DNA of 64,000 nucleotides from Terriglobia bacterium. GTDB taxonomy: Bacteria > Acidobacteriota > Terriglobia > Acidiferrales > UBA7541. This document shows, in pieces, positions 3,409 through 62,966 of the stretch. Made by a program: the position numbers and the translations under genes. The stretch spans positions 1,184,001-1,248,000 of the forward strand of contig OY968796.1 in assembly GCA_963695545.1 (NCBI GenBank), read 5' to 3'. Each line of letters begins with the position of its first letter. The stretch's first letter is position 1. The notes beneath the pieces were generated by a model. That model saw nothing but the letters and a program-made list of their open reading frames with translations, ran no database searches and was not told where the DNA came from.

Positions 3409-3614
3409 GAAGTCTCTCCTTGTAAAAACTTGTGGAAACGCGAAATCGTTTCGTCAAGTGTAGCGCCCCGTACGGCGCCCAGTCCAGCAAATGACGGGCC
3501 TACGCACCGGCGTCTTGTGATCGCGCGCTGCTGTGCGGCTCCGCCCCGGCCCATGTTATGCTTCCTCCTTCCGTCTCCGCGCCGCAGGGCGTGGCGTCTT
3601 GTGACAAAATCTCC

Positions 3615-4151: not shown

Positions 4152-4166
4152 GGCGGAGAATTTCCA

Positions 4167-5015
4167 ATGGCCTGGTTCAAGCGCGAAAAAAAATCGATCG
4201 ACCACCCGGTCCCGCCCGACGAGCGCACCGTGAAGACCGAAGGCCTGTGGACCAAGTGCGCAAGCTGCCGCACCATCGTCTGGAAAAAGGATCTCGAGGC
4301 CAATTTTTACGTCTGCCCGAAGTGTCAGCACCATTTCCGCGTCGGCTCGAAAAAGCGGCTCGAGCTGCTTCTTGACGGCCACTGGGTCGAGCACGACGCC
4401 GCGCTCGCATCGAGCGATCCTCTGCACTTCACGGACACCCGCCCCTACGCCACGCGATTGCGCAAGGCGCAGCGCGATCTCGGCATGGCTGACGCCATCG
4501 TCACCGCCGAAGGCCTGCTGAACGGCCGCCCCGTAATGTGTTGCTCGATGGAGTTCGGCTTCATCGCCGGTACCATGGGCGCCGTCGTCGGAGAGAAAGT
4601 GACCCGCGCGATCGAAATGGCCATCGAGCGGCGCCTGCCCTTGGTGATCGTTTCCTGCTCCGGCGGCGCGCGCATGATGGAAGGCACCATCAGCCTGCTG
4701 CAGCTCGCCAAAGTTTCGGCGGCGCTCGCGCGTCTGGACGAAGCGCGTCTCCCGTTTATTTCCGTGCTCACCGATCCCACCACCGGCGGCGTCACCGCCA
4801 GCTACGCCATGCTCGGCGATTTGAACATCGGCGAGCCCGGCGCCCTGATCGGCTTCGCCGGCGCGCGCGTGATCGAGCAAACCATCCGCCAGAAATTGCC
4901 CGAAGGTTTCCAGCGCTCCGAATTTTTATTGCAGCATGGATTTCTTGACGCCGTCGTGCATCGCAAGGATCTGAAAACCTACATCTCCTCGGCGCTCGAT
5001 TTTTTTCTGGCGTAG
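4167..5015 (+). CDS. accD: Acetyl-CoA carboxylase carboxyltransferase beta subunit
   Basis: C4 zinc finger (CASC/CPKC), SGGARMMEG, DPTTGGVTAS, GFQRSEFL. Confidence 0.97.
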   Translation: MAWFKREKKSIDHPVPPDERTVKTEGLWTKCASCRTIVWKKDLEANFYVCPKCQHHFRVGSKKRLELLLDGHWVEHDAALASSDPLHFTDTRPYATRLRKAQRDLGMADAIVTAEGLLNGRPVMCCSMEFGFIAGTMGAVVGEKVTRAIEMAIERRLPLVIVSCSGGARMMEGTISLLQLAKVSAALARLDEARLPFISVLTDPTTGGVTASYAMLGDLNIGEPGALIGFAGARVIEQTIRQKLPEGFQRSEFLLQHGFLDAVVHRKDLKTYISSALDFFLA

Positions 5016-5056
5016 CGCCGCACGAGAGTTTTCTTTTTCCGCCAACACCCGCTCCC

Positions 5057-6505: not shown

Positions 6506-6551
6506 AGCGCTGTGGTACGGAGCGGCCCAAACGCGCGGTCGTAAAGGAGAG

Positions 6552-6776
6552 ATGATGCCCGGCGAATCTCAAAAGCCAGTGTGGTGGAAAATCCTCGTAG
6601 GGCTAGTGTTACTTTATGTTGAAATCAAGAACCATTTTAGTCAGGCGCCCAATCTGATGAAGGCGCGCGATCCAGCCGAGCAGCTGGGGATGAACATAGC
6701 GATGGGATTCTTTATCGCGCTGGGATGCTGGTTACTCTACTCTGGAATCAAGCCAGTGTGGCGCAAAACCCTTTGA
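6552..6776 (+). CDS. Small two-TM hypothetical membrane protein
   Basis: AAGGAG RBS, two hydrophobic segments, lower GC than neighbours. Confidence 0.65.
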   Translation: MMPGESQKPVWWKILVGLVLLYVEIKNHFSQAPNLMKARDPAEQLGMNIAMGFFIALGCWLLYSGIKPVWRKTL

Positions 6777-6870
6777 ATAAAACCCGAGAGTTTGATTTCA
6801 AGCTGACCACCATTAAACCGGCCGTCGAGTTGCCCGCCTCCGCGAGCGGATGCTACGATTGCCGGTTCCC

Positions 6871-7677
6871 ATGGCCACTCCACCACACACCAAGCCGCGC
6901 GTCGGCGTCCCCTGGCGCAACACCGCCGAAGAGACCAAGAACCAGCGCCCGAAGATTGATCCCTATCTCGACGCCGTTCGCGCCGCCGGCGGCGAGCCCG
7001 TCCTGCTCTCGCTCGACCAATCGCCAGAAAAGCTAAAAGGTCTGGCGAACACGCTTGACGCCTTCGTCCTCCCCGGCAGCCCCTCCGACGTGGACCCCGC
7101 CCGTTACGGCGCGCCGAAGCACCCCGAGACGAGCGATGCTGACGCCGCGCGCGAGCGCATGGACGCAACTCTTCTCGACCACGCGCTCGCCACGCATAAG
7201 CCTGTGCTGGCCATCTGTTACGGCACGCAATTCCTGAATGTCTATATGGGCGGCAGCCTGTTTCAGGATCTGCCTGACGAAAAACCCAGCCCGATCCGCC
7301 ACGATCGCGAGGACGACGCGCCCGATTCCGAGCACGCCGCGCGCATTGAAGCCGGCCGCGTCGCGGAATTGGCGCACCGCGTCGGAGCAACTGAATCGGC
7401 GCGCCCCGCGCAGTCCGGCGCCGCCGCCGAACTTGTCGTCAACAGTTCGCATCACCAAGCCGTACGCGAGCCGGGCCGCGACCTGCGCGTTACCGCGCAT
7501 GCCGCCGACGGCACGATCGAGGGAGTCGAATACACCGGCCCAGCCGACTGGATCGTCGGCGTGCAATGGCATCCCGAGCGAATCTCGAACAAAGCCAGTG
7601 GCGCCGAACTTTCGCGAGCGTTGTTCCGCGAGCTGATCTCGGAATCCGCCGCGCGCCGCGCGAAGCGCACTGGCTGA
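6871..7677 (+). CDS. Gamma-glutamyl-gamma-aminobutyrate hydrolase family (peptidase C26, class I glutamine amidotransferase)
   Basis: LPGSPSDVDP, LAICYGTQ nucleophile elbow, NSSHHQA, GVQWHPE. Confidence 0.9.
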   Translation: MATPPHTKPRVGVPWRNTAEETKNQRPKIDPYLDAVRAAGGEPVLLSLDQSPEKLKGLANTLDAFVLPGSPSDVDPARYGAPKHPETSDADAARERMDATLLDHALATHKPVLAICYGTQFLNVYMGGSLFQDLPDEKPSPIRHDREDDAPDSEHAARIEAGRVAELAHRVGATESARPAQSGAAAELVVNSSHHQAVREPGRDLRVTAHAADGTIEGVEYTGPADWIVGVQWHPERISNKASGAELSRALFRELISESAARRAKRTG

Positions 7678-7762
7678 AAAAAAGCGATAGGCATCAGGGC
7701 GGCGCGATCCCGACACCCGCGCCAAACCCGCGCACAAAAAATAGGCACCAGAGAGGAACCGA

Positions 7763-8527
7763 ATGATCTCCTTGGCAGGCAAAGCGGCACTCGTCACTGG
7801 CGGCTCACGCGGCATCGGCGCCGCAACCGTAAAAATGTTCGCGCAAGCCGGCGCCGACGTGGTGTTCAGTTACAACCGCAATCGCGAGGCCGCCGCGCAA
7901 GTCGAGCAGGAAGCGCGCAAGCACGGCACGCGCATCGAATCGCTCAAAGCCGATCTGGGCCGCATGGCCGACGCCAAGCGCCTGGTCGGCTACACGATCG
8001 AGCGCCTCGGCCGCCTGGACATCCTGGTCGCGAACGCCGGCATCTGGAACGCCGTGGACGCGCCCATCGAAAAGTTGACCGAGCGCGAATGGGACGACAT
8101 GATGCGCGTAAATCTCAAAAGCGTCTACGACGTCACGCACTTCGCCTCCGCGCGCATGATCGCGCAGCGCTCCGGCCGCATCATCGGCTTAAGCTCCACC
8201 GCCGGACAGCGCGGCGAGGCCTTTCATTCCCACTACGCCGCCACCAAAGGCGCCGTCATCAGCTTTGTGAAAGCTCTTTCCACCGAACTCGCGCGCCACA
8301 ACATCCTCGTCAATTGCGTCGCCCCCGGCTGGGTCGATACCGACATGTCAAAGTCTGTCCTGGACAACAAGGAAGGCTTGAAGTTTGCCACCTCGGTGAT
8401 CCCTCTGCGCCGCGTCGCCAAAGCCGAAGAGGTCGCCGGCGCCGTACTGTTCCTCGCCTCCGACCTGGCAACCTTTATCACCGGCGAAGTGCTCAATGTA
8501 AATGGGGGATCGGTGTTGTGCGGATGA
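7763..8527 (+). CDS. SDR family oxidoreductase (FabG-like)
   Basis: TGGSRGIG, NAG, YAATK, VAPGWVDT. Confidence 0.92.
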   Translation: MISLAGKAALVTGGSRGIGAATVKMFAQAGADVVFSYNRNREAAAQVEQEARKHGTRIESLKADLGRMADAKRLVGYTIERLGRLDILVANAGIWNAVDAPIEKLTEREWDDMMRVNLKSVYDVTHFASARMIAQRSGRIIGLSSTAGQRGEAFHSHYAATKGAVISFVKALSTELARHNILVNCVAPGWVDTDMSKSVLDNKEGLKFATSVIPLRRVAKAEEVAGAVLFLASDLATFITGEVLNVNGGSVLCG

Positions 8528-9453
8528 AAAATGCGGCGTGGATGAAAGCTGCTGTGCGGACGCACGATGTGGCGCGGATACGAAACGTTGTGCGCACGAG
8601 CTTGCGATTCGCGGTCCTAACTCTCGTAGCGCTGGCCCTCGCCGCCGCGCCGCTCCCGCTTCGCGCGCAGAACGACGAAGCGCTGATGCCCGACCAAAGC
8701 GCCGCCAAAGCCAAAGTCTTGCTGCAGCAGGAAATCGCTGCGCTCGGCGGCCAGGCCTATCTCACCGTGCACGATTACGTTTGCGAAGGACGCCTGGCTC
8801 AATTCGGTCACTCTGGCGACGTCACCGGCTATCCGCCCTTCAAGGATTTCTGGATTCTCCCCGACAAGAACCGCACCGAATGGGACAAAAAAGCCACCAT
8901 CGTCGATCTTTTCGCGGGCAACCAGGGCTGGTCGCTCGATCGCAGCGGCGTCAACGATCAGTCCGCCCAAGCCATCGCCGATTTCCGCGAACAAATCAGA
9001 GTGGATATGGACAACGTCCTGCGCTTTCGCCTCAACGAAGACGGCATGACCTTTCGTTACGCCGGCCCGGACATCGTCTATCTACAGCAGATCGACTGGG
9101 TCGAATTGGTCGATAAGAACGACACGACCATGCGCTTCGCGCTCGACGCATCCACGCACTTGCCGATTCAATACCAGGTGATCACACGAAATCCCGTCAC
9201 CCGCGAGCGCAGCGAGAAAGACACGCTCTATTCCGAATACATCCCCATCGACGGCGTGAACACCCCGCGCAAAGTTTCGCAGACGCAGGATGGCCGCGAA
9301 ATCTACGCCGCCGCTTACACCGGATGCCAGTACAACACCAATCTCGACGCCTACCTCTTCACCAAAAAATCCCTCGACGACCGCTACGCCCAGGAACCCA
9401 AACCGAAAAGCCAGAAGCCGGCGCCGCCAACGCATCCCGCTCCGTCGCACTGA
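8524..9453 (+). CDS. Secreted hypothetical protein (possible LolA-like sorting-protein fold)
   Basis: ATG overlaps the SDR stop; signal-peptide-like VLTLVALALAAAPLPLRAQ; beta-rich mature part. Confidence 0.65.
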   Translation: MKNAAWMKAAVRTHDVARIRNVVRTSLRFAVLTLVALALAAAPLPLRAQNDEALMPDQSAAKAKVLLQQEIAALGGQAYLTVHDYVCEGRLAQFGHSGDVTGYPPFKDFWILPDKNRTEWDKKATIVDLFAGNQGWSLDRSGVNDQSAQAIADFREQIRVDMDNVLRFRLNEDGMTFRYAGPDIVYLQQIDWVELVDKNDTTMRFALDASTHLPIQYQVITRNPVTRERSEKDTLYSEYIPIDGVNTPRKVSQTQDGREIYAAAYTGCQYNTNLDAYLFTKKSLDDRYAQEPKPKSQKPAPPTHPAPSH

Positions 9454-9560
9454 ACATCGCGCCGCTCAGATCCCTGCGCGCCTCCCATTCCTCGCTCCGA
9501 TTGCGTCGTCGAGTGGCTTTACAGAGTACAATCGCTTGTTCTTGAACGGGAGGCTCTCGA

Positions 9561-10157
9561 TTGCGTCCCCTGCCGTTTTCCGCCGGTCCCCTCTACGCGA
9601 TTCTTTTCTGGGGAGCCTACGGCTTGTGGATCGTCCTGGAAACCATCGGGGGCGCGACCAAACGTTCCGGCGAGAGCTCCAAGGGTCGCGACCGAGGCTC
9701 CTACAAGCTGATCATGATTCTGCTTTGGCTCGGCCTCGGATTGGACTTCGCATTTTCCTTTATCATTCCGAAAGCCACGATACTCTGGCACCGGCATTTG
9801 CTCTTCTTCGTGGGAATCGCACTGATGCTTGCGGGATTGGCCTTTCGTTTCTACTCCATGTCGATTTTGGGCCGATTCTTTACCTACGATGTCGCTATTC
9901 GCTCCGGACACACCGTCATCGAGTCCGGACCGTATCGCTATATCCGCCACCCGTCCTACACTGGCGCTTTCGTCACTCTCGCCGGACTGGGCCTGGCGCT
10001 CGGCAATTGGGCAGGCCTTCTCGCGCTTCTAGCCTGCATGGGAATTGCCTATGCGTATCGCGTGCACGTTGAAGAAGCCGCACTCGTCGCGGCCCTGGGC
10101 GAGCCTTACGCGCTTTACATGCGCCGCACACAACGCTTCGTTCCATTCTTGTTCTAG
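9561..10157 (+). CDS. Isoprenylcysteine carboxyl methyltransferase (ICMT) family membrane protein
   Basis: LGRFFT, GPYRYIRHPSYTG, EEAAL, RFVPFLF. Confidence 0.9.
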   Translation: MRPLPFSAGPLYAILFWGAYGLWIVLETIGGATKRSGESSKGRDRGSYKLIMILLWLGLGLDFAFSFIIPKATILWHRHLLFFVGIALMLAGLAFRFYSMSILGRFFTYDVAIRSGHTVIESGPYRYIRHPSYTGAFVTLAGLGLALGNWAGLLALLACMGIAYAYRVHVEEAALVAALGEPYALYMRRTQRFVPFLF

Positions 10158-10231
10158 AACGTGACTTCGCTCCAGTGAATTAAACCTACCGCCTCGGTTT
10201 CCAAATCGTCTAGACGCGCGCGAAGCGGCGA

Positions 10232-10705
10232 TTAAGCTTTTGGGTTGGATTTCGACGATTTTTTGGCCTTCGATCCGGAGGCCCGCCGCGCACCCGGCAC
10301 TTTCCCGATTCGAGCGTCCCCGGCCAGGATCAGCTCGCACGCGCGCAGCGCCGCCTCCTCGAAATCCTGCGCGTCGACTGGAAGCACTTGCCAGCCCGTG
10401 ATTTTCTTCCCCAGCAGTTGAATCGATCTCATATTCGGGAAATCGCGCCGCAAACTTTCGTGGTTTTCCACGTGAGTGGCCAACCAGACGCCGTTGTCTT
10501 CCGTAGAGGTGGGCCTGTCGCGGAGGATCAGAACAATCTTTTCCCCCACATAGACAGCGAGACACCCGAACATGGGATGTGTCCGCGGCGCGAGCGGAGC
10601 GATCGCGTCAAGCACAAATTCGTGCGGCACCCGCTTGCGTTTCTTTGCGCCGAAGAGCGTGTCATCCAGCGAAAGAAAATCCGTATTGCGGCGTGACTTC
10701 GGCAT
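10232..10705 (-). CDS. TfoX N-terminal-domain-like protein
   Basis: PMFGCLAVYVGEKIVLIL motif typical of TfoX_N-like proteins. Confidence 0.55.
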   Translation of the reverse strand: MPKSRRNTDFLSLDDTLFGAKKRKRVPHEFVLDAIAPLAPRTHPMFGCLAVYVGEKIVLILRDRPTSTEDNGVWLATHVENHESLRRDFPNMRSIQLLGKKITGWQVLPVDAQDFEEAALRACELILAGDARIGKVPGARRASGSKAKKSSKSNPKA

Positions 10706-10846
10706 GCGCGCGATGAATCGACTATCCCTTTTCTTCTGCTTCGAGCAAGCTCTGAATGTACCTTAATCTCGCTTCGCGCGGCGAGTCATCGACCGAGCAT
10801 TTTCGTCCGCGGCTTCAAGCAGCCGGTATCGCGGTATAATAGTTGA

Positions 10847-11410
10847 ATGGCTTGGGCCCAAAGTAACGCGCAGTCACCGCTCGCAATGCACGCAACCACT
10901 GTTCTCTGCGTGCGCCGCGACAATAAAGTAGTCCTCGCGGGCGACGGCCAGGTGACTCTGGGCGAGCACGTCATGAAACACACGGCGAAAAAAATCCGCC
11001 GGCTGTTTGAGGGCAAAGTTTTGGCCGGCTTCGCGGGTTCCACGGCCGACGCGCTTTCACTTTTCGAGCGCTTCGAGGGCAAGCTCCAGGAATTTCACGG
11101 CAATTTGCAGCGCGCCTCCGTCGAGCTCGCCAAGGAGTGGCGCAAAGACCGCGCGCTGCGCCACCTTGAAGCGCTGCTGATCGTGGCCGATTCCAAAGGC
11201 ACGTTTCTGCTCTCCGGAAATGGCGACGTCATCGAACCAGACGACGGCCTCTGCGCCATCGGCTCCGGCGGCCCTTATGCTCTTTCCGCCGCGCGAGCGC
11301 TCGCGCGCCACACGAAACTCGGCGCCAAGGAAATCGCGCAGGAAGCCATGCACGTGGCCAGCGAAATCTGCATCTATACGAATGGCAACGTCACGATCGA
11401 GGAGCTCTGA
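10847..11410 (+). CDS. hslV: ATP-dependent protease subunit HslV
   Basis: [34 protein letters not shown] at 10835-10840 just upstream suggests a leaderless start. Confidence 0.97.
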
Positions 11411-11422
11411 GGCAACCGACCC

Positions 11423-12856
11423 ATGGTGATCTATCTTCCAGGTGAGCAGCGCGAACCGGAACCCGAGCCGCAGCCGTCCTTCGACGAGCTGACGCCGCGG
11501 GAAATCGTCGCCGAGCTCGATAAATACATCGTCGGTCAGGCCGCCGCCAAGCGCGCCGTGGCCGTGGCGCTGCGCAATCGCGTGCGCCGCCAGAAATTGC
11601 CCGCCGAGCTTGCCGAGGAAATCCTGCCGAAAAATATTTTAATGATCGGACCAACCGGCGTCGGCAAAACGGAAATCGCGCGGCGTCTCGCGCGCCTCGC
11701 CGGTTGCCCTTTCATCAAGGTCGAAGCCTCGAAATACACCGAAGTGGGCTACGTGGGCCGCGACGTCGAATCCATGGTGCGCGATCTGGTCGAGACCTCG
11801 ATCGATATGATCCGCGAAGAGAAGCTCGACGAAGTCGCAGAGCGCGCCGACCAAACCGCCGAGGAACGTGTTCTCGATCTGCTGTTGCCGCCGTCACCCG
11901 CGCCATCGCCCGCGTCACCGGACGCGCCGCTCTCCACGGGAATCGCGCCCTCGGATACGCTGCGCCGCGAGCCAACCGATCGCACGCGCGAAAAACTGCG
12001 CGCGCAGTTGCGTGAAGGCAAACTCGATCAGCGCATGGTCGAAGTCGAAGTGCGCGAGCGCGCCATGCCTTCCTTCGAGATCATCACCAACCAGGGCGTC
12101 GAGGAAATGGACGTCAACGTCAAGGACATGCTCTCCGGCCTCTTCGGGCAGCAGAAAAAGAAACGCAAGATGACCGTCGCCGACGCCTTCGAGTACTTGA
12201 TCCAGGAGGAAGAAAACAAACTCATCGACATGGATCAGGTCACGCGTGCGGCCGTCGAGCGCGCCGAACAAATGGGCATCATCTTTATCGACGAAATCGA
12301 CAAAGTCGCCGGACGCGAATCGGGGCACGGGCCCGACGTCTCTCGCGAAGGCGTGCAGCGCGATATCCTGCCCATCGTCGAAGGCACCACCGTGAACACG
12401 CGCTACGGAATGATCCGCACCGACCACATTCTGTTCATCGCCGCCGGCGCGTTCCACGTCACCAAGCCGTCCGATCTGATCCCTGAGCTTCAGGGCCGCT
12501 TGCCGATCCGCGTCGAGCTTTCCGCGCTGCGCGAAGAGGATTTCGTGCGCATCCTCACCGAGCCCAAAAACGCGCTGCTCAAGCAGTACACCGCGCTGCT
12601 GGAAACCGAAGGCGTGAAGCTCAGCTTCACCGACGACGCCGTCGCCGCCGTGGCGCGCTTCGCCGTGCAGGTAAATGAACAAACCGAAAATATCGGCGCG
12701 CGACGCTTGCACACCATTCTCGAGCGCCTGCTCGACGAAATTTCGTTCGAGGCGCCCGAATTGAAAAAGAAAAACGTGAAAGTCGACGGCGCCTACGTCT
12801 CAAAGCAACTCGCTGAAATCGTCAAGAACCAGGACCTCAGCCGGTACATCCTCTGA
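11423..12856 (+). CDS. hslU: ATP-dependent protease ATPase subunit HslU
   Basis: [47 protein letters not shown]. Confidence 0.98.
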
Positions 12857-12873
12857 CGGCTCGCGAAGCGGAT

Positions 12874-14115
12874 ATGCGCGCCTCGGTTCTCCATTCCATA
12901 CCACAACGCCTCGTTCCCGCCTTCAGCACACAGCGTGGCTTGAAGCGCCGCGCACCGCGCAGATCAGAATTGCGCCGTGGTTCAGAAATTCCCGAACGCA
13001 TTGGCGGCCGCACTGGAATCGCGTTGCTCCTCGCGCTCGCAACTTTCGCCGTCGCTGGCTGCGGCGCGCCCGGTGAGCCTGAACCGCCAAAACCAATCGT
13101 GCCGCAACCCGTCGCCGATCTCGCCGCGCGGCAGCAAGGCGACACCGTAATCCTGACCTTCACGCTGCCGGCTCGTTCGACCGAAAATGAGAATTTGGAC
13201 GGCGTTCCCACGGTTGAGATTTACCGCGGCATGCTCGCTGCGGGAGAAGCGGGCCATAAAACAACTACGCATCTCGTCTACACAATTCCTGCCGCGCTCG
13301 TGGATACCTATCTCTCCGGCGAACATTTGGAATTTCGCGATCCATTTCACACCGATGATCTCGCGCGCGAAGCCGGCGCGAGCATGGTGTACATGGTGCG
13401 CACGAACGTCTCGCGCCGGCACGATTCCGCCGATTCCAACATCGCCGAAACGCAAATCTATCCCGTGCCCGCTCCACCCGTCGCGCTGCGTGCTGTCGTC
13501 ACCGAGCACGCGATCGAAGTCGCCTGGGACGCTCCCGCGGCGGCCTCGGGAATTTCAGGCTACCGCGTTTATCGCGGCGAACTCGCATCCGATTCCCCGC
13601 CGAACGAAACCGATCTCGCCAAAATGAAATTCGTTTCGCCGCTCGCGCTCGCGGGACCGGCATCCGAAACAGCCTTCGACGACGCGCAGTTTGAGTTCGG
13701 CCACACCTACGTCTATATCGTGCGCAGTGTGGCGCAATACGGACCGAACGAAGTTGAATCGGACGATTCCGCGCCCGCTATCGTCACCCCGCGCGACACA
13801 TTCCCTCCCGCCGCGCCGCGCGGCCTCGAAGCAATTTACGTCCCGGCAACCGCCGGGGCGCCTGCCGACATCGAACTCTCGTGGGACATCAGCCCGGAAT
13901 CGGACCTGGCCGGTTACAACGTCTATCGCAGTGAACAACCGGGCACACGAGGCCAGAGATTAAACCCGGAATTGTTGCCCAGCCCGGCGTTTCGTGATAT
14001 TCAGGTGGCCGCCGACAAGCATTACTTCTATTCGGTTTCCGCCGTCGATCGGGCTGGCAATGAAAGCTCCCTGAGCCCCGCGGTTTCCGCAGAAGTCCCG
14101 GCGAATTCGCCGTAG
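12874..14115 (+). CDS. Fibronectin type III domain lipoprotein (start uncertain)
   Basis: Lipobox VAGC; FN3-like motifs GYRVYR, DLAGYNVYR, YSVSAVDRAGNES. Confidence 0.8.
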   Translation: MRASVLHSIPQRLVPAFSTQRGLKRRAPRRSELRRGSEIPERIGGRTGIALLLALATFAVAGCGAPGEPEPPKPIVPQPVADLAARQQGDTVILTFTLPARSTENENLDGVPTVEIYRGMLAAGEAGHKTTTHLVYTIPAALVDTYLSGEHLEFRDPFHTDDLAREAGASMVYMVRTNVSRRHDSADSNIAETQIYPVPAPPVALRAVVTEHAIEVAWDAPAAASGISGYRVYRGELASDSPPNETDLAKMKFVSPLALAGPASETAFDDAQFEFGHTYVYIVRSVAQYGPNEVESDDSAPAIVTPRDTFPPAAPRGLEAIYVPATAGAPADIELSWDISPESDLAGYNVYRSEQPGTRGQRLNPELLPSPAFRDIQVAADKHYFYSVSAVDRAGNESSLSPAVSAEVPANSP

Positions 14116-14149
14116 GCAGCTAGGCTCCGCAAGGAAAAAAGAAAGAGGC

Positions 14150-14614
14150 GTGAAGGCGATGACCCGAACTCAATTCTCGGGCATAGAGAGATTTTTCTCG
14201 CTGCGCGGCGCGACGCTGCGCACCGGAATCTTCACGGGCCTCGCGCTTTCCGCGGTGCTGGTGGCGTGGGTGCTCGTAGCCAATCGCGTCGCGCAACTTG
14301 AATCCTTCGCGCTCGAGCGCAATTGCGCCGCCGTCGGCGCGTTGCTGGCGCTGATGGCCATTCCGGTTTGCCGGTTCGTGAAATCTCCACGCGCGCTGTT
14401 TATTTCCGGCGTTGCCGCCTGGACGATTTTGACGTTCGCGTATATGGCGTTGGAAGTGTTTTTTCCGCGCCTCGAAGATCGAATGGGGCCGTTGCAACTC
14501 TTCATGCTCGGAGCGACATCCTACGGGCTTCTGGCCGTAATCGGTTGGGTGATCGGCATTATCCGCCTCGCGCGTCACCAGCCCCTGGTAGCGACGCGGC
14601 GCAGACATCCCTGA
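14150..14614 (+). CDS. Hypothetical four-TM membrane protein
   Basis: RBS-like AAGAGG before GTG; four hydrophobic segments. Confidence 0.65.
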   Translation: MKAMTRTQFSGIERFFSLRGATLRTGIFTGLALSAVLVAWVLVANRVAQLESFALERNCAAVGALLALMAIPVCRFVKSPRALFISGVAAWTILTFAYMALEVFFPRLEDRMGPLQLFMLGATSYGLLAVIGWVIGIIRLARHQPLVATRRRHP

Positions 14615-14714
14615 TCCTCGCTCGCGCCGTCCCGCTGATCTGTCTCCTTCGGCGTTGTGATTTCCCGCAACGATCCCAACCCGACCCGTGGGCGGTCCAG
14701 CCTTTGACCTGAGG

Positions 14715-14881
14715 TGGGGGGTAGCGCACCCTTTGCCCGCGTCTGTAGTTTTTCAGTCCTCACGCGCAGATTCTACTAATAGCGACCTTCACCCTGGAGT
14801 AACATCGGGCGTCTGTCGGGCTGCGGTGTGCGCAGCCCGGGGTGGCCCATCCTTTGTCCGCTGCGGCGGACAAAGGGTGGG
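14715..14881 (+). repeat. Left long inverted flank of RAYT, ending in REP hairpin GGGTGG-CCCATCCTTTGTCCGC-tgcg-GCGGACAAAGGGTGGG (14840-14881)
   Basis: Imperfect reverse-complement match over ~165 bp to 15480-15645. Confidence 0.85.
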
Positions 14882-14898
14882 TCCGTGGGCTCCCCTTG

Positions 14899-15456
14899 AT
14901 GCCCTGGAATCTCAAATGCTACTACGGCAGCCAAGACCTCCATTTCCTTACGTACACGTGCTACCGGCGGTTGCCACTTCTTTCCTCCGCGCGCGCCAGA
15001 AACGTGTTCGTTGAGATTCTCGCGGAAGTCCGCGATGGCTACGGTTTTCTTCTCGCCGGATACGTCGTGATGCCTAACCACGTTCATCTCCTGATCGGCG
15101 AACCCGCGAAAGGAACGCCTTCCACCGTGATGCAAGTGCTCAAGCAAAGAGTCTCGCGCCGCCTGCGCGCCAGGAAGAGGCGCGCGCCGCAAACGCAACT
15201 CCAGCTCGCATTCGTCGAAGGCGAACTCATGCCGCGGCAATTCTGGCAGCGCAGATTTCACGATTTCAACCTGTGGAGTCACAAGAAAATAATCGAAAAG
15301 CTCGAATACGTGCACATGAATCCGGTGAAGAACAACCTGGTGGAACATTCGAAGCACCGCGCTCCGCGCGGGCCGGCAAAGGACTGGCCGTGGAGCAGTT
15401 GGTCGTACTACGCGAAGGGCGAGCAAGGACTCGTCCGGATCGACGAGAGTTCGTAG
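14899..15456 (+). mobile_element. REP-associated tyrosine transposase (RAYT, HUH Y1 family)
   Basis: HFLTYTC, YVVMPNHVHLLI (HUH), FWQRRFHD, EYVHMNPV (catalytic Tyr), WPWSS; flanked by REP hairpins. Confidence 0.92.
15350..15376 (+). repeat. 27-bp hairpin micro-repeat, in-frame copy within RAYT
   Basis: CGAAGCACCGCGCTCCGCGCGGGCCGG vs TAAAGCAATGCGCTCCGCGCAGGCCGG, with a compensatory T-A to C-G change in the stem. Confidence 0.75.
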
Positions 15457-15479
15457 AAGCGATCCCGGAAATCGAAAGC

Positions 15480-15645
15480 CCCACCCGTTGTCCGCTGCGG
15501 CGGACAAAGAATGGGCACCCCGGGCTGCACAAGGCGCAGTCCGCCAGACGCGCCACGTTACTCCAAGGTGAAGGTCGTTAGTGGTATCATTCGCGCGTGG
15601 AGCACGAGAATCGCGAGACGCCCATATAGGGTCTGCCACCCGCCC
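15480..15645 (-). repeat. Right long inverted flank of RAYT with REP hairpin (15480-15520)
   Basis: CCCACCCGTTGTCCGCTGCGGCGGACAAAGAATGGGCACCC then sequence complementary to the left flank, ending CCACCCGCCC. Confidence 0.85.
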
Positions 15646-16119
15646 GTGCAGAACGTACAGAGCTTCCGCGCTTCCCCGGGGTGCACGGCAGCAGTCACAG
15701 CCCTCTCGACGGTTGCCGGAGCCTACGCCGGGGCATCGGTTCTCGGCCCCTTGCTAGCGCCGGCAGGCGCTGCTGCAGGGGCGCCGGGAGGGCCGCCAGG
15801 CGCCGCCGCGGGAGTCGCGGCGGCAGAGGTCGCCGGCGCTGCGGCAGGCGGGGCTGCCGGCCACGCAATCGCCCCAGCCGTTTCAAATATAATGTGCTCC
15901 TCCGGCACGGGGAGCGGAGGCCAGAGCGGCGGGTCGCGCGGCGGAGGCAGTGGGCAGAGAGAGAACCGGGCATTTAAAGAGGCAGTTAGGAGGATCAATC
16001 AGGATAGACGGGAGCCGTTGACCCCGGACCAGGTTCGAGCGCTTCACGACGAAATCCCGAACCAAGGATTTAGCCTTGATGAGATAGTGGAAATCGGCAA
16101 GGGAATGTTCAGGAACTGA
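15646..16119 (+). CDS. Orphan polymorphic-toxin C-terminal tip (Rhs-CT-like fragment)
   Basis: Gly/Ala-rich hydrophobic linker, GS linker, then a small charged domain NRAFKEAVRRI...LHDEI...EIVEIG; no Rhs core; followed 12 bp later by a small acidic gene. Confidence 0.6.
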   Translation: MQNVQSFRASPGCTAAVTALSTVAGAYAGASVLGPLLAPAGAAAGAPGGPPGAAAGVAAAEVAGAAAGGAAGHAIAPAVSNIMCSSGTGSGGQSGGSRGGGSGQRENRAFKEAVRRINQDRREPLTPDQVRALHDEIPNQGFSLDEIVEIGKGMFRN

Positions 16120-16131
16120 GGACGGAAAACC

Positions 16132-16623
16132 ATGAGTGCTGCAAACGCGGAGATTATGGAAATCGTATCGACTCTAAAGGGCAAGGCGCCCTGGGGGGTC
16201 CGCTTGGGTCATGGTTCGTTCGTAACGATGGAGTTTGGAGACCCGGATCCCAGAGCAGGCGGTCGGGTCATCCATGGCGAGTGGCACCTGTGGCTGTACA
16301 TGTGTAACTGGAGGATCGAGGCCAAACACAGGATTTTCGCGGGATCAAACGACGACCGCAAAGCGATTGAGGCAACGCTGGGAGATTTATCGTTTGACAG
16401 CATCGAATCGATCGACGTTATACAGCCGTCGCTAGATCTCTCCATTCAGTTCCGGTCAGGGATAAGGATACTTACATTTTCGTCTTCCTCTGATCACGAT
16501 GAAGAAGAGTGGAAGCTATTTACCCCCGGCGGGAAATGCCTGCTGGCGTACGGCGACGGCACCTATGAGTACGCCAGAAGCGACGAACCTAGTCCACGGA
16601 CGAGCGGCGGCCCCGAGGCCTAG
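16132..16623 (+). CDS. Putative immunity protein
   Basis: GAGG RBS; acidic 163 aa with GEWHLWLYMCNWRI and EEWKLFTP; directly downstream of the toxin-like tip. Confidence 0.6.
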   Translation: MSAANAEIMEIVSTLKGKAPWGVRLGHGSFVTMEFGDPDPRAGGRVIHGEWHLWLYMCNWRIEAKHRIFAGSNDDRKAIEATLGDLSFDSIESIDVIQPSLDLSIQFRSGIRILTFSSSSDHDEEEWKLFTPGGKCLLAYGDGTYEYARSDEPSPRTSGGPEA

Positions 16624-16654: not shown

Positions 16655-16732
16655 GTGGCCCTCGATAAGAACGAAGGCGCTGTCAAGGCGCAGAACGCAC
16701 GTCCCGGTGTTTTACCACCGCGGCGTTGCCAC

Positions 16733-16908
16733 AGAAGATGGAGGACCAAGACTCTGGAAATCTCACGGTAAATCATTTCGCTATGCCCCACACCAACCGT
16801 ATTCGAATAATAACTTATAGATAATATTGACATTACATTGCCGCCCGTGCTATCATGTTGCATGAGCCTCGTACCGCACCTCTCATCCGCATTCCCGCGC
16901 AAGATTTT
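16733..16908 (+). repeat. 176-bp promoter-bearing element, copy 1 (TTGACA 16827-16832, TATCAT 16851-16856)
   Basis: Ungapped inverted homology to 21222-21397, including a 28-bp exact core TAAATCATTTCGCTATGCCCCACACCAA. Confidence 0.85.
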
Positions 16909-17395
16909 TCCGTTCGGGCCCGGCTCAGCCGCGCAAATCCTGGCGGACAACTTTACGCCCGCACGTCGGAGCCTGCCTGCCGCCCGCCCTGCTCGGCCTA
17001 CAAAATCCCATCGATTGACCACAACCGAACCGTGCTTACCCGCACAAACGCGTCGCCGTAAACCGCTGATTCCAAACCAAATGCAAAAGAGTGCGCATCT
17101 TGCTGAAAATAAACGCTCGCAAGCCCATTGCGCTCAATCTCTTGCGCACTCTTTCTCACTCTTTTCCCGCAAGCCCTGTATTTGCCGCTCTTACGCAAAA
17201 GATACCCGGGGGTGTACCCCCCTCCAGCCGCGATCTCGCTCCCGCAACACGCATCACAAGCTCATCTCAGCCCGCAGTGACGGGGAGGTCGGCTCTCGGC
17301 GTTTCGACGGTCAAAACCTGCGTCCCACTGGCTGCGTGGAAGGCCTTCCGCGGTTCCTGTAAACTATCCGCGGCACAACGCCTAAAAGGGACATC

Positions 17396-20822: not shown

Positions 20823-21013
20823 TACGCCGCTTTGACGACTTTCCCGTCGCGCAGACACGATGTGCATACGCGCACTTGCTTGCGCACGCCGGAGACCACG
20901 GCGCGAACGCGCTTGAGATTGGGAATCCAGCGGCGACGCCGGGCATTATTGGCGTGGCTGATCACATTTCCATACTGCGGAGATTTTCCGCAAATTTCGC
21001 ATTTCTGCGCCAT
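20822..21013 (-). CDS. rpmB: 50S ribosomal protein L28
   Basis: CEICGK..GNVISHANN..RRRWIPNL..VCTSCLR. Confidence 0.97.
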   Translation of the reverse strand: MAQKCEICGKSPQYGNVISHANNARRRRWIPNLKRVRAVVSGVRKQVRVCTSCLRDGKVVKAA

Positions 21014-21138
21014 GTCTGCTCCTTACAGTGTTTCCAGTACGCGTTTCAACAGCCACTAAAACCTACAAAGTATAGCAACGAACGTCACGCCAGCCTAGAA
21101 CGCGGTTTTGGGAAGAGCGATAGGCGGGGGCGATTGTG

Positions 21139-21192
21139 GCCATGCGCTCCGCGCAGTTGATTAAAGCAATGGGCTGCGCGCGGACCGGGGCC
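21139..21192 (+). repeat. Second tandem pair of the 27-bp unit (direct repeat of 20769-20822)
   Basis: 54-bp ungapped match with about 8 mismatches. Confidence 0.85.
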
Positions 21193-21221
21193 GAATGCTC
21201 GGAACGATCGGACCGTGACCG

Positions 21222-21397
21222 AAAATCGTGTGCGGGTGAGCGGACGGGAGGTGTTGTTCGAGGTTCATACTCAATGGTAGCACGAACGACAATACGATGT
21301 CAATATTACCTATGGGTCATTATTCGAATACAATTGGTGTGGGGCATAGCGAAATGATTTAGTGTGAGATTTGCAGGGTCTTGGTCCTCCGTCTTCT
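21222..21397 (-). repeat. 176-bp promoter-bearing element, copy 2 (TTGACA 21303-21298, TACCAT 21279-21274)
   Basis: Inverted homolog of 16733-16908. Confidence 0.85.
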
Positions 21398-21444
21398 AAC
21401 GATTGCGGTACGGGCGAGATGAGCCGCGACGGTCGAAATATCAG

Positions 21445-21513
21445 AAAACGTCCCGTCTGTCCCCGATGATCCGTCTGTCCCCGATGATCGTCCCCGATGA
21501 TCCCGATGATCCC
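21445..21513 (-). repeat. Family-B repeat (GGGGACAGACGGGACGTTTT) with telescoping duplications
   Basis: AAAACGTCCCGTCTGTCCCCGATGAT/CCGTCTGTCCCCGATGAT/CGTCCCCGATGAT/CCCGATGAT/CCC. Confidence 0.9.
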
Positions 21514-59283: not shown

Positions 59284-59400
<117 letters not shown>

Positions 59401-59408
59401 TTAATTCC

Positions 59409-59451
59409 AAGGGCTCCGATTCCTAAACCGAATCGGAGCCCTTTTTATTTT
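59409..59451 (+). terminator. rRNA operon terminator
   Basis: AAGGGCTCCGATTC-ctaaacc-GAATCGGAGCCCTT-TTTATTTT. Confidence 0.92.
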
Positions 59452-59491: not shown

Positions 59492-59522
59492 GAAAATGTC
59501 CCGTCTGCCCCTGACCTGCCCC
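59492..59522 (-). repeat. Family-B repeat
   Basis: GAAAATGTCCCGTCTGCCCC followed by a re-duplicated CTGCCCC. Confidence 0.75.
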
Positions 59523-59604
59523 GGGGCGGCAACGTTGCAGGCCGGAAATGCGTCACACCAGATATAGAATTTAGCGGGGAACTTGTCCGATGGAGGGTTC
59601 GGCG

Positions 59605-60386
59605 ATGAAGAAAATTCTATTGGCCGCGTTCGCACTATGGTTGATGGGCGCACCAGTGGCGCAGGGGCAGACAAAAACATTCCGATTATATCTTGCTCCA
59701 AATTCGACTGTCGCCCTCCCTGACATCGTGAAAAATCTGGTCTCCAAGTGCCCGAGCACCACGATGACGATCGACGCCCAAAAATCCGATTTCATGCTCC
59801 AAGCATGGGGCTGGTCCGGCAACTATAAATTCACCGTTTTCGAGCGCGGCGGCACCGCCGTTTACGGCACCACGACCGTGACGCTCTCGAATGCCGTCAA
59901 AGACGTTTGTCACTTCCTCCAATCCCCCAGGCTCAGCAGAATATCGGTCCCGCCGCACCCCCCAGCAGCCCACCGCAGGCCGTCTATGTGAGTGCCGATT
60001 CCCTTAACATCGTTCGCGGCGCTCTGACGAATGCCGCCGACGATTTGCGGAACGCCGCGAACCAAAGCGATTACGTCCAGAAAGCGACTGCAGAGATCGA
60101 CCAAGCGCTGGAGGACGCCAAACAAGCGGCAGCACATATCCACGACGATTCCGGTGCGGCGGTTCCGCTACCATCCCCCAACTTCGATGCTCCGCCACCA
60201 CCGGCGCCGCGAACCAACTTCATGTTGTACGCGTCTCTCGAAAGACTAAGGTTCGCTTACCAAGCCTTGACCCGAGTTCCAGACGGTGATTTCGGAGGCT
60301 ACCGCACGCGAATGAATGACGACATCGCGGCCGCTGCCGGAGTCTTGGTCAACGGCATCGCCTCATACAACGCCCGGCATCCGTAG
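59605..60386 (+). CDS. Secreted hypothetical protein, probably one gene split by a frameshift near 59925
   Basis: Signal peptide MKKILLAAFALWLMGAPVAQG; the second frame continues as a Pro-rich linker and helical domain after a C5 run. Confidence 0.55.
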
Positions 60387-60436
60387 TAGACGCAGAAGAT
60401 GAAGAAACATCAGAAAACGCAGCATCTTTCAAATCC

Positions 60437-60595
60437 GACAATCGAGGACGACAATCGGGGACAGACGCGACGTTCTCCGTCTTTCTGGGAACGCGCGCAT
60501 AGAATAGCGATTGGCGGTGCGAGACATTCGCGACCAGCATACGGACCAAGTGAGCCAGCGCCAAAAAAATTTAACAACTGTCCCGTCTGTCCCCG
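60437..60595. repeat. Inverted pair of family-B repeats (REPIN/MITE-like, ~140 bp)
   Basis: GGGGACAGACGCGACGTT (60457-60474) ... AACTGTCCCGTCTGTCCCC (60576-60594). Confidence 0.85.
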
Positions 60596-60719
60596 TTTTC
60601 CCGGCGAACAATCTTCGGATATCGCTGGCTGTCCTGCGATTGCGTTCTTCAGTTGGTTCTTCACCGAGCTGAATGTCCCTTTAGATCGCCATCGGAACGC
60701 ACGCCAGCGGCCAAACCAA

Positions 60720-61472
60720 TCAGATTTGGGCCATGCCGCCGTCGACGAAGAGTTCGATGCCCGTGACGTAGCTGCTTTCATCGGAAGCAAGGAAAGAAAC
60801 AACTTTGGCGACTTCGTCCAAGGTCCCCGTGCGACCGAGGGGTATGTTGACCACGGCGCTGTCTGCGTATTGCTTGATTTGTTCGTCAGTCAGGCCCAGG
60901 GAATTGCGGTAGCCCGGAGAAGGAATCACGCCAGGACTCACAGCGTTCACGCGGATCTTGCGGTCCTTGAGATCCGAGGTGAAGGTGCGCGCGAAGGACC
61001 GCACCGCCGCTTTGGATGCGCTGTATACACTGAGCGCGGGCGGTCCTGTCACGGAAACGATCGACGCATTCAGAATGATCGAGCTTCCATCCTTTAGCAG
61101 CGGAAGCGCCTTTTGCACGGAGAACAGTAGACCCTTGACGTTGGCATTGAACGTCTTGTCGAAATGCTCTTCAGTGATTGTGCCCAGGGGGCCAAATTCC
61201 CCAGTGCCGGCATTGGCGAATAGAATGTCGATATGCCCCTTCTCCCGCTTTACGGTGTCGTATAACCGGTCAAGATCGGCGAGATTGGAAACGTCGCCCT
61301 GCACGGCCGTAACGTTTTTGCCGATCTGTTTCACCGCCGCGTCGAGTTCGTTTTGACGACGGCCGGTGATAAACACATACGCGCCCTCGGCAACGAAGCG
61401 TTGCGCCGTGGCCAGACCGATTCCGCTATTGCCTCCCGTGATGACGGCTATTTTTCCTTCCAGTTTGCTCAT
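60720..61472 (-). CDS. SDR family oxidoreductase
   Basis: [26 protein letters not shown]. Confidence 0.93.
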
Positions 61473-61597
61473 GATCCTTTCCCTCCTTGATTTCCGGTCG
61501 CGTGATAGTTCTGTACCGCACAGTATAGATGTCCTAGCGGGTGAATGGTTGCAACAATTGTGTATCGGCCGGTAAGGAAGGAGCATCCAAGGTGGGT

Positions 61598-62206
61598 ATG
61601 AAACATAACAAATCCTCAGGACGCACAGGACGTCCCCGCTCCTTCGATATCGACAAAGCCCTGGACCGTGCGTTGCAGGTGTTCTGGCGGAAGGGATATG
61701 AGGGCACGTCTCTGTCGGACCTGACCAAAGCTGTGCACGTCAACCGCCCGAGCCTCTACGCCGCCTTCGGTGACAAGAAAGCGCTGTTTCGCAGGGCGCT
61801 AGATCGTTACTTGAACGGGCCGGCGTCCTATACCCAAGAAGCATTGAAGGAGCCGACCGCCCGCGCGGTCGTTGAACGATTGTTGCAGGGCGCCGCCGAT
61901 TTGAACACCGCGCCGCGCAATCCGGGCGGCTGCCTCATGGTGCAAGGTGCGCTTGCCAGCGGCGCCGCGGGCGATTCCATCCGGCAGGAACTAATCGCGT
62001 GCCGCGCGGCGGGTGAGGCTGCGTTGCGCCGGCGCTTCCAGCGCGCGAAATCAGAACGTGACCTTCCGGCCGATACAGATCCAGCAGATCTTGCTCGCTA
62101 CCTGGCAGCGATGATCTACGGAATGGCAGTCCAGGCAGCAGGCGGAGCCAGCCGCGATAAATTGCAAAGCGTAATCGAGATGACCTTGCGAACTCTACCG
62201 CTATGA
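61598..62206 (+). CDS. TetR/AcrR family regulator, divergent from the SDR
   Basis: [36 protein letters not shown]. Confidence 0.93.
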
Positions 62207-62235
62207 GACAGCGCATGTTCACTTGTGATAGAAAC

Positions 62236-62257
62236 CGGCGACAGACGGGACGTTTTC
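62236..62257 (+). repeat. Family-B repeat
   Basis: CGGCGACAGACGGGACGTTTTC. Confidence 0.8.
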
Positions 62258-62277
62258 GAATAACCAACACATAATCA

Positions 62278-62306
62278 TTGACGCGCAGTTAGAATGGTGC
62301 TATACT
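62278..62306 (+). promoter_or_regulatory. Sigma70-type promoter with no clear downstream CDS
   Basis: TTGACG-17 bp-TATACT with extended TG. Confidence 0.65.
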
Positions 62307-62586
62307 GCTGTGCGTAAGCGAATCACGCATCCCCGCCGCTGTATTTCTAGCACCCACCTAAGCACTTGCGTTGTTCGCGCCCCGAGTGCATTTTCGGGAA
62401 TGCGAGCTCTGAGCTTGCCCGCCGCGGCGTGCGAGTTGCAGGTCGGATTAGATTTATTCTTCAGATGTTCCGCGAAAGACGTAACGCATTTAGTTTCAGG
62501 CAATTATGAGTTGCTCCCCCACACATTTCCTGGAAGTCCTTTAACTGCTATCTTTTATGAGTTGGGTACCGGGGGTGGGGGTGCCT

Positions 62587-62966
62587 CTAGCTACCGCCGT
62601 CGCGCCCCTTCGGCTCCCACAGCTCGATGGAGTTTCCTTCCGGATCTTTGAGGCGCGCGAAGCGCCCGTTCGGATATTGTTCGGGATCTATCTCCACGGC
62701 CACGCCGGCCGAGTGAAGCTGCGCGACTATCGCGTCCAAATTCGCGACGCGAAAATTGATCATCCACTGCTTCCCGGCAACGCCAAAATATTCCGTATCG
62801 TCCGGAAACGGCGCAAACGCCGTCGGCCCAGCCTGCTGTTGCCACGGAGAGTCGTCGTAATTATCCGGCACCGGCTCCACGCCAAGATGATCGCGATACC
62901 ACGCCGCCAGCGCCTTCGGATCGCGGGCGCGAAAAAGAATCCTCCGATGCCAGCCACCTTGTGCAT
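62587..62966 (-). pseudogene. VOC/glyoxalase family protein with a 1-bp frameshift near 62931
   Basis: MHKVAGIGGFFF | RARDPKALAAWYRDHLG...INFRVANLD...GRFARLKDPEGNSIELWEP across two frames. Confidence 0.85.

What the first reader, a model, noticed from the sequence alone, without database searches (positions are those of the whole stretch)
59492..62257. Array of gene cassettes delimited by a second repeat family (GGGGACAGACGGGACGTTTT) just after the 5S terminator
Seen: four copies in alternating orientation at 59492-59512, 60454-60476, 60576-60595 and 62236-62257. Cargo A (secreted protein, 59605-60386) lies between the GGGGAC-side ends of copies 1 and 2. Cargo B (divergent SDR plus TetR, 60720-62206) lies between copies 3 and 4. 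Copies 2 and 3 face each other across ~100 bp. A fifth copy (21445) abuts the last Rhs immunity gene. Inference: a REP-like family, with its cognate enzyme elsewhere, that marks insertion points of accessory genes in the same geometry as the RAYT cassette at 15.6-16.6 kb.
Basis: partly seen in the sequence, partly recalled or inferred. Interest (0 to 1): 0.75.

Follow-up and report, generated by a model that had tools for sequence, protein, structure and literature searches.

The report
Transposon ends welded to foreign genes
The repeats are leftover end sequences of a known but biochemically unstudied single-strand DNA transposon, and two blocks of foreign genes beside the 5S rRNA gene stop almost exactly at those ends, so the ends likely joined incoming DNA into the chromosome and would point to where the enzyme cuts.

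Summary
The four copies are real: nine genome-wide, none expected by chance. They are not REP hairpins. They are terminal inverted repeats (TIRs) of a TIRtron (TnpA-Y1 subclass 2.1; Di Nocera 2013, Quentin 2018). In relatives, inward-facing pairs enclose a ~235-aa HUH/Y1 gene; this genome keeps only a truncated copy. Copies 2-3 form a miniature element holding about 14 decayed transposase codons. Copies 1 and 4 are lone ends facing outward. Cargo B is 90% identical to DNA of another genus without the repeat, and homology stops 9 and 3 nt from the repeat tags. Cargo A (one gene, 1-nt frameshift) also ends at the repeats. Two congeners keep the copy-1 site but carry other genes there. Short tandem copies of the repeat's outer tip (32 of 118 copies) mostly start 7 nt outside the GGGG tag, the likely cut site. 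The ends likely made these junctions; capture of incoming DNA versus trimming of an older island is not resolved, and no cassette was seen moving as a unit. The scan noted similar arrays on other DNA (e1-7895697, e1-8297116, e1-7801182).

The parts
59284..59443 (+). 5S rRNA gene and its terminator: the conserved anchor on the inner side of TIR1
   Evidence: Rfam RF00001; terminator 59409-59443; terminator plus about 50 nt alignable in G003 and G004
59493..59522 (-). TIR1: lone end, inner side toward rrf, outer (GGGG) side toward cargo A; a partial repeat runs to 59522
   Evidence: orthologous TIR intact in G004 and decayed in G003
59524..60436 (+). Cargo A segment, defined by homology to other acidobacterial DNA
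   Evidence: left end from G412, 81% identity starting at 59524; right end from L118, 90% identity ending at 60436
59605..60386 (+). Cargo A gene: ~260-aa protein with a signal-peptide-like N terminus and no Pfam family; 1-nt frameshift near 59925 in this assembly
   Evidence: signal peptide judged by eye, not by a predictor
60437..60476 (+). TIR2 (tag at 60457, inferred terminus 60450) with one 13-nt decayed tandem copy of its own tip at 60437-60449; one end of the miniature element
60516..60558 (-). Decayed first ~14 codons of the TIRYT transposase gene, inside the miniature element
   Evidence: 74% DNA identity over 88 nt with the TIR and 5' end of the Y1 gene at G000:C1:1474812-1474899; alignments to minis in G004 and L112
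60575..60601 (-). TIR3 (tag at 60594, inferred terminus 60601): the transposase-proximal end of the miniature element
   Evidence: the miniature element folds by TIR pairing, z -3.1
60604..62233 (.). Cargo B segment, 90% identical over its whole length to G091 and 94% over 60724-62233 to G021 (another genus, no TIRs)
60720..61472 (-). Short-chain dehydrogenase/reductase gene
   Evidence: Pfam PF13561 E 4.6e-58
61598..62206 (+). TetR-family regulator gene, divergent from the SDR
   Evidence: Pfam PF00440 E 5.4e-13
62230..62256 (+). TIR4 (tag at 62237, inferred terminus 62230): lone end, outer side toward cargo B
   Evidence: orthologous TIR with conserved inner side and a different outer neighbour in G003
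62257..62590 (+). Inner side of TIR4: sigma-70-like promoter (62278-62306) followed by a diverged member of a separate dispersed repeat family
   Evidence: 74-88% conserved in G003
21445..21511 (-). Fifth window copy with three nested tandem copies of its own outer tip; inner side toward a promoter segment and conserved genes, outer side toward the Rhs/immunity cluster

Best explanation
The repeat is the terminal inverted repeat of a TIRtron (a subclass 2.1 HUH/Y1 transposon), and this locus is likely a record of its ends being cut and joined to foreign DNA by a visiting transposase. Shown: inward-facing pairs enclose the transposase gene or shrunken remnants of it; lone outward-facing ends persist next to rrf in a three-genome clade; the DNA between them differs in each genome and stops at the ends. 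Inferred from family chemistry and the tandem tip copies: the enzyme nicks the GGGG strand 7 nt outside the tag and stays bound to the 5' end of the repeat through its tyrosine, leaving a 3'-OH on the outside DNA. If that 3'-OH is extended a few bases and rejoined, a tandem tip copy forms. If the bound end is joined to a 3'-OH on other DNA, the chromosome on the inner side of the repeat becomes fused to that DNA. Two such joins, one on each strand, would fix a fragment between two outward-facing ends. Cargo A, the miniature element and cargo B would be the product of four joins. The cargo is then the target of the reaction, not a mobile cassette, and the array is inert now because no intact enzyme gene was found in this genome.
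For: Cognate link: 7 of 7 genomes with a close homologue of the enzyme (of 151) also carry the motif, against 41 of 151 overall. Six inward pairs 757-821 nt apart enclose the gene. Enzyme: NHVH, WQ, YxE(L/R)NP, SS, 233-237 aa, matching the subclass 2.1 row of Quentin Table 1; the model (pLDDT 87.9) matches TnpA-REP 4ER8 best, E 5.7e-8. Terminus: conservation over 103 copies begins at -8/-7. 32 of 118 copies have a self-copy of 8 nt or more in the outer flank, against 0 in the inner flank, mean 4.0 (max 12) with swapped units and 0.2 in random DNA. Of 23 exact duplications whose start range touches -8..-6, 18 allow -7. Junctions: cargo B left ends at -10 with a further match at -8; cargo B right fits -8|-7 or -4|-3 in both donors; cargo A right ends exactly where the tandem tip copy begins; two independent truncations of the transposase gene by a TIR fit -8|-7. 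Replacement: G000, G003 and G004 align through the TIR1 site and then diverge into cargo A, a 555-aa ORF and a CBS-domain gene. In G004 TIR1's outer end is joined to a duplicate of the rrf 3' end and terminator, and an inverted TIR-plus-terminator copy lies at the far side. Recurrence: 47 of 53 neighbouring TIR pairs alternate; a cargo A homologue lies between outward TIRs, next to a related mini-element, in metagenome contig L112. Chemistry by analogy: 5'-phosphotyrosine, free 3'-OH and a nick-extend-rejoin model for TnpA-REP (PMC3333891, passages).
Against: No subclass 2.1 enzyme activity was found in the papers read, and the cut site is inferred from sequence alone; 5 of the 23 duplications exclude -7. 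Trimming of an older island would leave the same junctions. Cargo A's left junction is only bracketed (3-12 nt from the tag; L116 has its own TIR-like octamer there). The donors are 81-94% identical, so they are relatives of the true donors. 8 of 10 cargo A loci in metagenomes have no TIR signal. No outward-bounded segment recurs with the same two junctions. In congeners the orientation rule is less clean: 16 of 41 copies had no match to G000 on either side, and some (L139, L135, several in L063) have the outer side on DNA that G000 also holds. The six border copies in G000 come from five islands, and the loci used for counting were chosen because they held repeats. G-rich tips can also duplicate by slippage.
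Confidence: 0.55

Rival explanations
1. Trimming, not capture: a larger foreign island arrived at rrf by another route, TIRtrons and minis jumped into it, and their ends then deleted neighbouring DNA by the same cut-and-join chemistry within the molecule, leaving only the useful genes between the ends.
For: Junctions at TIR termini are predicted equally well. TIRs truncate their own transposase gene in G000 and G001 and abut Rhs fragments in G158. In G003, blocks that G000 holds elsewhere (cytochrome c cluster, katG-fur) lie between TIRs, which shows rearrangement of native-type DNA.
Against: Cargo A and B have different nearest relatives and were not found together: 13 kb around the G091 donor holds nothing like cargo A. 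TIR1 predates the present cargo, being orthologous in three genomes with three different neighbours. No integrase-sized ORF lies between the ends.
Confidence: 0.25
2. Passive landmarks: TIR minis gather in a tolerant spot behind rrf, and host recombination or microhomology repair between repeats swaps the DNA between them, with no transposase at the cargo junctions; the tip copies are replication slippage.
For: No intact enzyme was found in G000 or five congeners. Several junctions carry 1-3 nt of microhomology. RAYT elements and Rhs genes collect in the same islands.
Against: The donors have no TIR to recombine with (0 copies in G021 and G091; best match 6 mismatches in the loci). Slippage does not explain tip copies only on the outer side, with starts clustered at one position.
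Confidence: 0.13
3. One reading: a REP-like family served by a resident RAYT, marking integron-like cassettes that excise and insert as units.
For: Alternating geometry with whole genes between repeats; five intact-looking RAYT-type Y1 genes in the genome.
Against: No hairpin or GTAG foot. The repeat flanks subclass 2.1 genes, not these RAYTs, which are 24-29% identical to it and have their own flanking repeats. Inverted sites on opposite strands cannot release one single-stranded circle (inference from IS200/IS605 chemistry). No cassette recurs with the same junctions.
Confidence: 0.05

Closest known systems
TIRtron / TIRYT (Di Nocera et al. 2013, PMC3733652: section 16 and passages read) = TnpA-Y1 subclass 2.1 (Quentin et al. 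2018, PMC6006769: passages and section 17 with Table 1 read)
   Same: Inverted repeats with the GGGGWSAS motif close to both ends of a Y1 gene; no REP hairpins; TIRs also found as singles, dimers and groups; protein length and HUH/W/Y/SS motifs; an Acidobacteria TIRYT group is named in the 2013 paper.
   Different: The parts read do not describe lone outward-facing ends bounding foreign genes, a terminus 7 nt outside the tag, or tandem tip copies. Pfam found no HTH in this lineage's C-terminal part.
REPtron / TnpA-REP with BIMEs (Ton-Hoang et al., PMC3333891, passages read; PDB 4ER8)
   Same: Same fold; proposed nick, primer extension and rejoining that amplifies repeat units; many repeats, few enzyme genes.
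   Different: REPs are hairpins with a GTAG foot and cleavage is at CT; here the repeat is not a hairpin, copy number is low (9), and the enzyme gene is patchy and mostly lost rather than stably kept.
TIME/MITE composite elements (Szuplewska et al. 2014, PMC4133298, abstract and outline only)
   Same: Miniature inverted-repeat elements flank and shuffle functional gene modules, with the transposase supplied in trans.
   Different: Those are Tn3-family elements that move cargo inside outermost inward-facing ends and duplicate the target. Here the outermost ends face the other way, so the cargo lies outside the elements, and the enzyme is HUH/Y1.
Integron cassette arrays (from general knowledge, not looked up)
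   Same: Unrelated accessory genes stacked at one chromosomal site and separated by short repeats.
   Different: No integrase, no attC-like hairpin in direct orientation, and no evidence of circular cassettes.

Membership tests
TIRtron / TIRYT (subclass 2.1) | TIR carries the GGGGWSAS motif | tested here: met
   The consensus begins GGGGACAG, with 97-103 of 103 copies agreeing at each of the first eight positions (copies were selected by likeness to this motif)
TIRtron / TIRYT (subclass 2.1) | Inverted repeats closely flank a Y1 transposase gene | tested here: met
   Intact genes in L067 (three), L069 and L071, frameshifted in L068; in G000 only a truncated gene and the mini in the window
TIRtron / TIRYT (subclass 2.1) | Protein motifs NHVH, W[EQ], YIELNP-type, SS tail, length near 238 aa | tested here: met
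   NHVH, WQ, Y[VTA]E[LR]NP, W[PT]WSS, 233-237 aa against Table 1; PF01797 above cut-off
TIRtron / TIRYT (subclass 2.1) | No REP-like hairpins as flanking repeats | tested here: met
   Five single copies fold no better than shuffles
TIRtron / TIRYT (subclass 2.1) | C-terminal extension (conserved in 2.1.1, HTH-like in 2.1.2 and in the TIRYT examples) | tested here: inconclusive
   A conserved helical extension is present but no Pfam HTH hit; the authors' subgroup profiles were not on hand
TIRtron / TIRYT (subclass 2.1) | Placement in the subclass 2.1 clade with the authors' sequences | not tested
   No tree was built; the papers' supplementary alignments and Figure 9 were not seen
REP / REPtron (RAYT with GTAG hairpins) | Short palindrome forming a hairpin | tested here: not met
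   z -1.1 to +1.2 for single copies
REP / REPtron (RAYT with GTAG hairpins) | GTAG-type tetranucleotide foot | tested here: not met
   Absent from the position table of 103 copies
MITE (copies 2-3) | Short non-coding element with TIRs, derived from an autonomous partner | tested here: met
   About 150 nt, TIRs at both ends, decayed transposase start; 16 inward pairs of 44-211 nt in relatives
MITE (copies 2-3) | Target-site duplication and an empty site | tested here: inconclusive
   The two flanks derive from different donors, so no empty site exists to compare
Integron / gene cassette array | Tyrosine integrase gene at the array | tested here: not met
   The ORFs between rrf and the downstream genes are cargo A, SDR, TetR, glyoxalase-like and WD40-like; the rest of the genome was not searched for integron integrases
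Integron / gene cassette array | Cassettes move as discrete units with fixed ends | tested here: inconclusive
   No recurrence among 24 outward-bounded segments in the fetched loci; the sample is small

The most novel reading that the evidence does not exclude
Subclass 2.1 HUH transposases drive an inside-out gene-capture route: lone ends left in the chromosome beside rRNA, tRNA and housekeeping genes act as reusable docking points, nicked 7 nt outside the GGGG tag and ligated to free 3' ends of incoming DNA, so islands are built and replaced without integrase, target site or cassette structure. The tandem tip copies are a fossil count of aborted nick-extend-rejoin cycles.
Probability: 0.3. 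Interest if true: 0.8.

Novelty: new variant of a known kind. Interest (0 to 1): 0.52.

Why it matters
Subclass 2.1 occurs in about 15% of sequenced strains (Quentin 2018), yet that paper left its link to TIRs as probable and its DNA target open. This locus gives a cognate repeat-enzyme pair, a predicted nick position and strand, and base-level junctions to foreign genes, which turns an open question into a simple oligonucleotide assay. If capture is confirmed, it adds a route of horizontal gene acquisition that needs no integrase and is missed by searches for integrons or composite transposons. If only trimming is confirmed, the ends are still active sculptors of genomic islands.

Tried and rejected
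A plasmid search with cargo A DNA found no match. A sequence search of solved structures with the enzyme found none; only the fold search did. Rfam found no family at the repeats. Sequencing-run search: four runs of one study hold most of the stretch, two marked as possible sources; no RNA holder listed. No read-level check of the cargo A frameshift or of junction variants is available, so both stay open. No atlas result was obtained for the cargo A family, so its function stays unassigned. A hairpin or guide pairing between the outer tip and the inner T-run was considered; folding gave no support beyond shuffles. I considered whether the tip copies come from a second element inserting into an existing TIR; they carry the copy's own 7-nt spacer (swapped-unit control), so local reiteration fits better. 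A fixed target sequence at the joins was considered and not found: truncated units end in C, A or G. The resident RAYTs as cognate enzyme were rejected. Literature searches (listings and abstract starts only, apart from the papers named) found no paper describing TIRtron-bounded cargo; the library lacks most subscription papers. A search of earlier scan notes for the junction idea returned nothing, as did one by enzyme sequence.

Full report
Observation. The window is G000:C1:1184001-1248000 of a 4.16-Mb single contig, acidobacterial by inference from the names on homologous records. The genome has nine copies within three mismatches, in five clusters. The SDR and TetR genes are confirmed. Cargo A is one gene of about 260 aa in homologues but is one base short near 59925 here.

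What the repeat is. Two genomic copies bracket the first 100 codons of a Y1 transposase gene that stops before the catalytic tyrosine. The motif occurs in 41 of 151 family genomes, with almost no hits for the reversed pattern. In fetched loci, inward-facing pairs 757-821 nt apart enclose a 233-237-aa Y1 gene. All 7 of 151 genomes with a close homologue of that enzyme carry the motif. The repeat fits GGGGWSAS, and the protein fits the subclass 2.1 row of Quentin's Table 1. An earlier scan note gave me the name TIRtron and the two papers; I checked both. The predicted structure is closest to TnpA-REP and the IS608/ISDra2 transposases. Single copies are not hairpins, so the repeat is a TIR and not a REP.

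Anatomy of the locus. Copies 3 and 2 are the two ends of a miniature element that keeps about 14 decayed codons of the transposase; related minis occur in G003, G004 and a metagenome contig. Copies 1 and 4 have no partners. Their inner sides run into chromosome (rrf terminator; a promoter segment) and their outer sides face cargo. The order is rrf, lone end, cargo A, mini-element, cargo B, lone end.

Junctions. Cargo B has no close match in 5 of 5 congeners but is 90% identical to G091 over 60604-62233 and 94% to G021 over 60724-62233; neither genome has the motif. Both donors continue with a shared sequence beyond 62233, so that break lies on the G000 side. Homology covers the non-coding spacers and stops 9 nt from the TIR3 tag and 3 nt from the TIR4 tag. 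Cargo A homology begins at 59524 (G412) and ends at 60436 (L118), the base before a tandem copy of TIR2's tip. All four cargo ends therefore lie at repeat-derived sequence; three fit a boundary between -8 and -7, and one is only bracketed.

Where the element ends. Over 103 copies, conservation starts at -8/-7. Of 118 copies from the loci I had fetched (not all matches), 32 carry a self-copy of the tip in the outer flank; the inner flank has none and the controls give 4.0 and 0.2 on average. The duplicated unit includes each copy's own 7-nt spacer. Of 58 exact tandem duplications near the copies, 23 have a start range touching -8..-6; 18 allow -7, 14 allow -6 and 11 allow -8. Two independent truncations of the transposase gene by a TIR fit the same boundary.

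The same site in relatives. G003 and G004 align with G000 through the terminator and the TIR1 site, then carry a 555-aa ORF (weak MACPF hit, under cut-off) and a CBS-domain gene. G003 also keeps TIR4 with its inner side. G001, G002 and G005 have no TIR there. In G004 the outer end of TIR1 is joined to a duplicate of the rrf 3' end and terminator, and an inverted TIR-plus-terminator copy closes the cargo; that is host DNA from the inner side of the end, copied and rejoined. In G000, six of six island-border copies (five islands) have the inner side toward DNA conserved in congeners and the outer side toward variable DNA. Among congener copies the test was weaker: 16 of 41 matched G000 on neither side and several go the other way. 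Neighbouring copies alternate in 47 of 53 pairs; inward pairs are mostly minis or full elements, and outward pairs span 0.5-7 kb. Of 10 metagenome loci with cargo A homologues, L112 repeats the outward-TIR-plus-mini layout with different junctions, L116 has a TIR-like octamer at the left junction, and 8 have nothing.

Mechanism. Shown: cognate pair, mini-element, junction positions, cargo turnover between resident ends. Inferred: a nick on the GGGG strand at -8|-7 with the tyrosine bound to the repeat side, by analogy with IS200/IS605 and TnpA-REP chemistry (PMC3333891 passages). Short extension and rejoining would give tip copies; joining to other DNA would give the cargo junctions. No intact enzyme gene was found in G000 or the five congeners (completeness 66-96%), so it likely visits on mobile copies. 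Joining to incoming DNA (capture) and joining within an older island (trimming) use the same chemistry and cannot be told apart here. No cargo was seen twice with the same ends.

Novelty. The element family is in print, including an acidobacterial group. The inside-out layout, the -7 terminus and the tip duplications were not found in the parts of the papers read or in three literature searches. Di Nocera's Figure 9 and both papers' supplements were not seen and may bear on TIR length. Earlier scan notes describe similar TIR-punctuated arrays on other DNA; those are unchecked notes, not independent support. Verdict: a new variant of a known kind, of moderate interest because it makes the activity of a large unstudied transposase subclass directly testable.

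Noticed in passing
window 62257-62590, 20900-21444, 16690-17270; G000:C1:1473960-1474527 and 1709250-1709922: Four of the nine TIRs run on their inner side into a promoter segment that heads a separate dispersed repeat (up to about 50 overlapping blast hits per position). Three of them share about 200 nt at 81-84%, including the decayed transposase start. Earlier notes describe about 110 such cassettes.
   Followed up: partly
G000:C1:1473940-1479620 versus G003:C211 (L149): The island next to the thiI-like gene, including the promoter cassette, two TIRs, the broken TIRYT, two RAYT genes and Rhs-like fragments, is missing in G003, and G004 has a different 3.3-kb insert there.
   Followed up: partly
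L063 (G003:C215) 4615-16373: A congener array beside a thyX-like gene: a cytochrome c cluster and a katG-fur block that G000 holds at other sites lie between outward TIRs, followed by immunity and Rhs genes (gene names by eye from translations).
   Followed up: partly
L067 (G158:C3) 3403-10200: Three near-identical intact TIRtrons alternate with Rhs C-terminal fragments and their downstream genes, which looks like recent activity and is the best source of an intact enzyme.
   Followed up: partly
G000:C1:1314191 (L122:6192): A lone TIR sits about 30 nt from a tRNA 3' end, inner side toward the tRNA, at the edge of a variable region, like TIR1 at rrf.
   Followed up: partly
window 59605-60386; L091, L093, L119-L121, L095-L111: The two halves of the cargo A protein also occur separately or fused to other sequence in other acidobacteria, so it is a two-domain mosaic of unknown function.
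   Followed up: no
G000:C1:1387492, 1424860, 1198935, 1475986, 1479004: Five RAYT-type Y1 genes of at least two kinds, with their own palindromic flanks, coexist with the TIR family in this genome.
   Followed up: no
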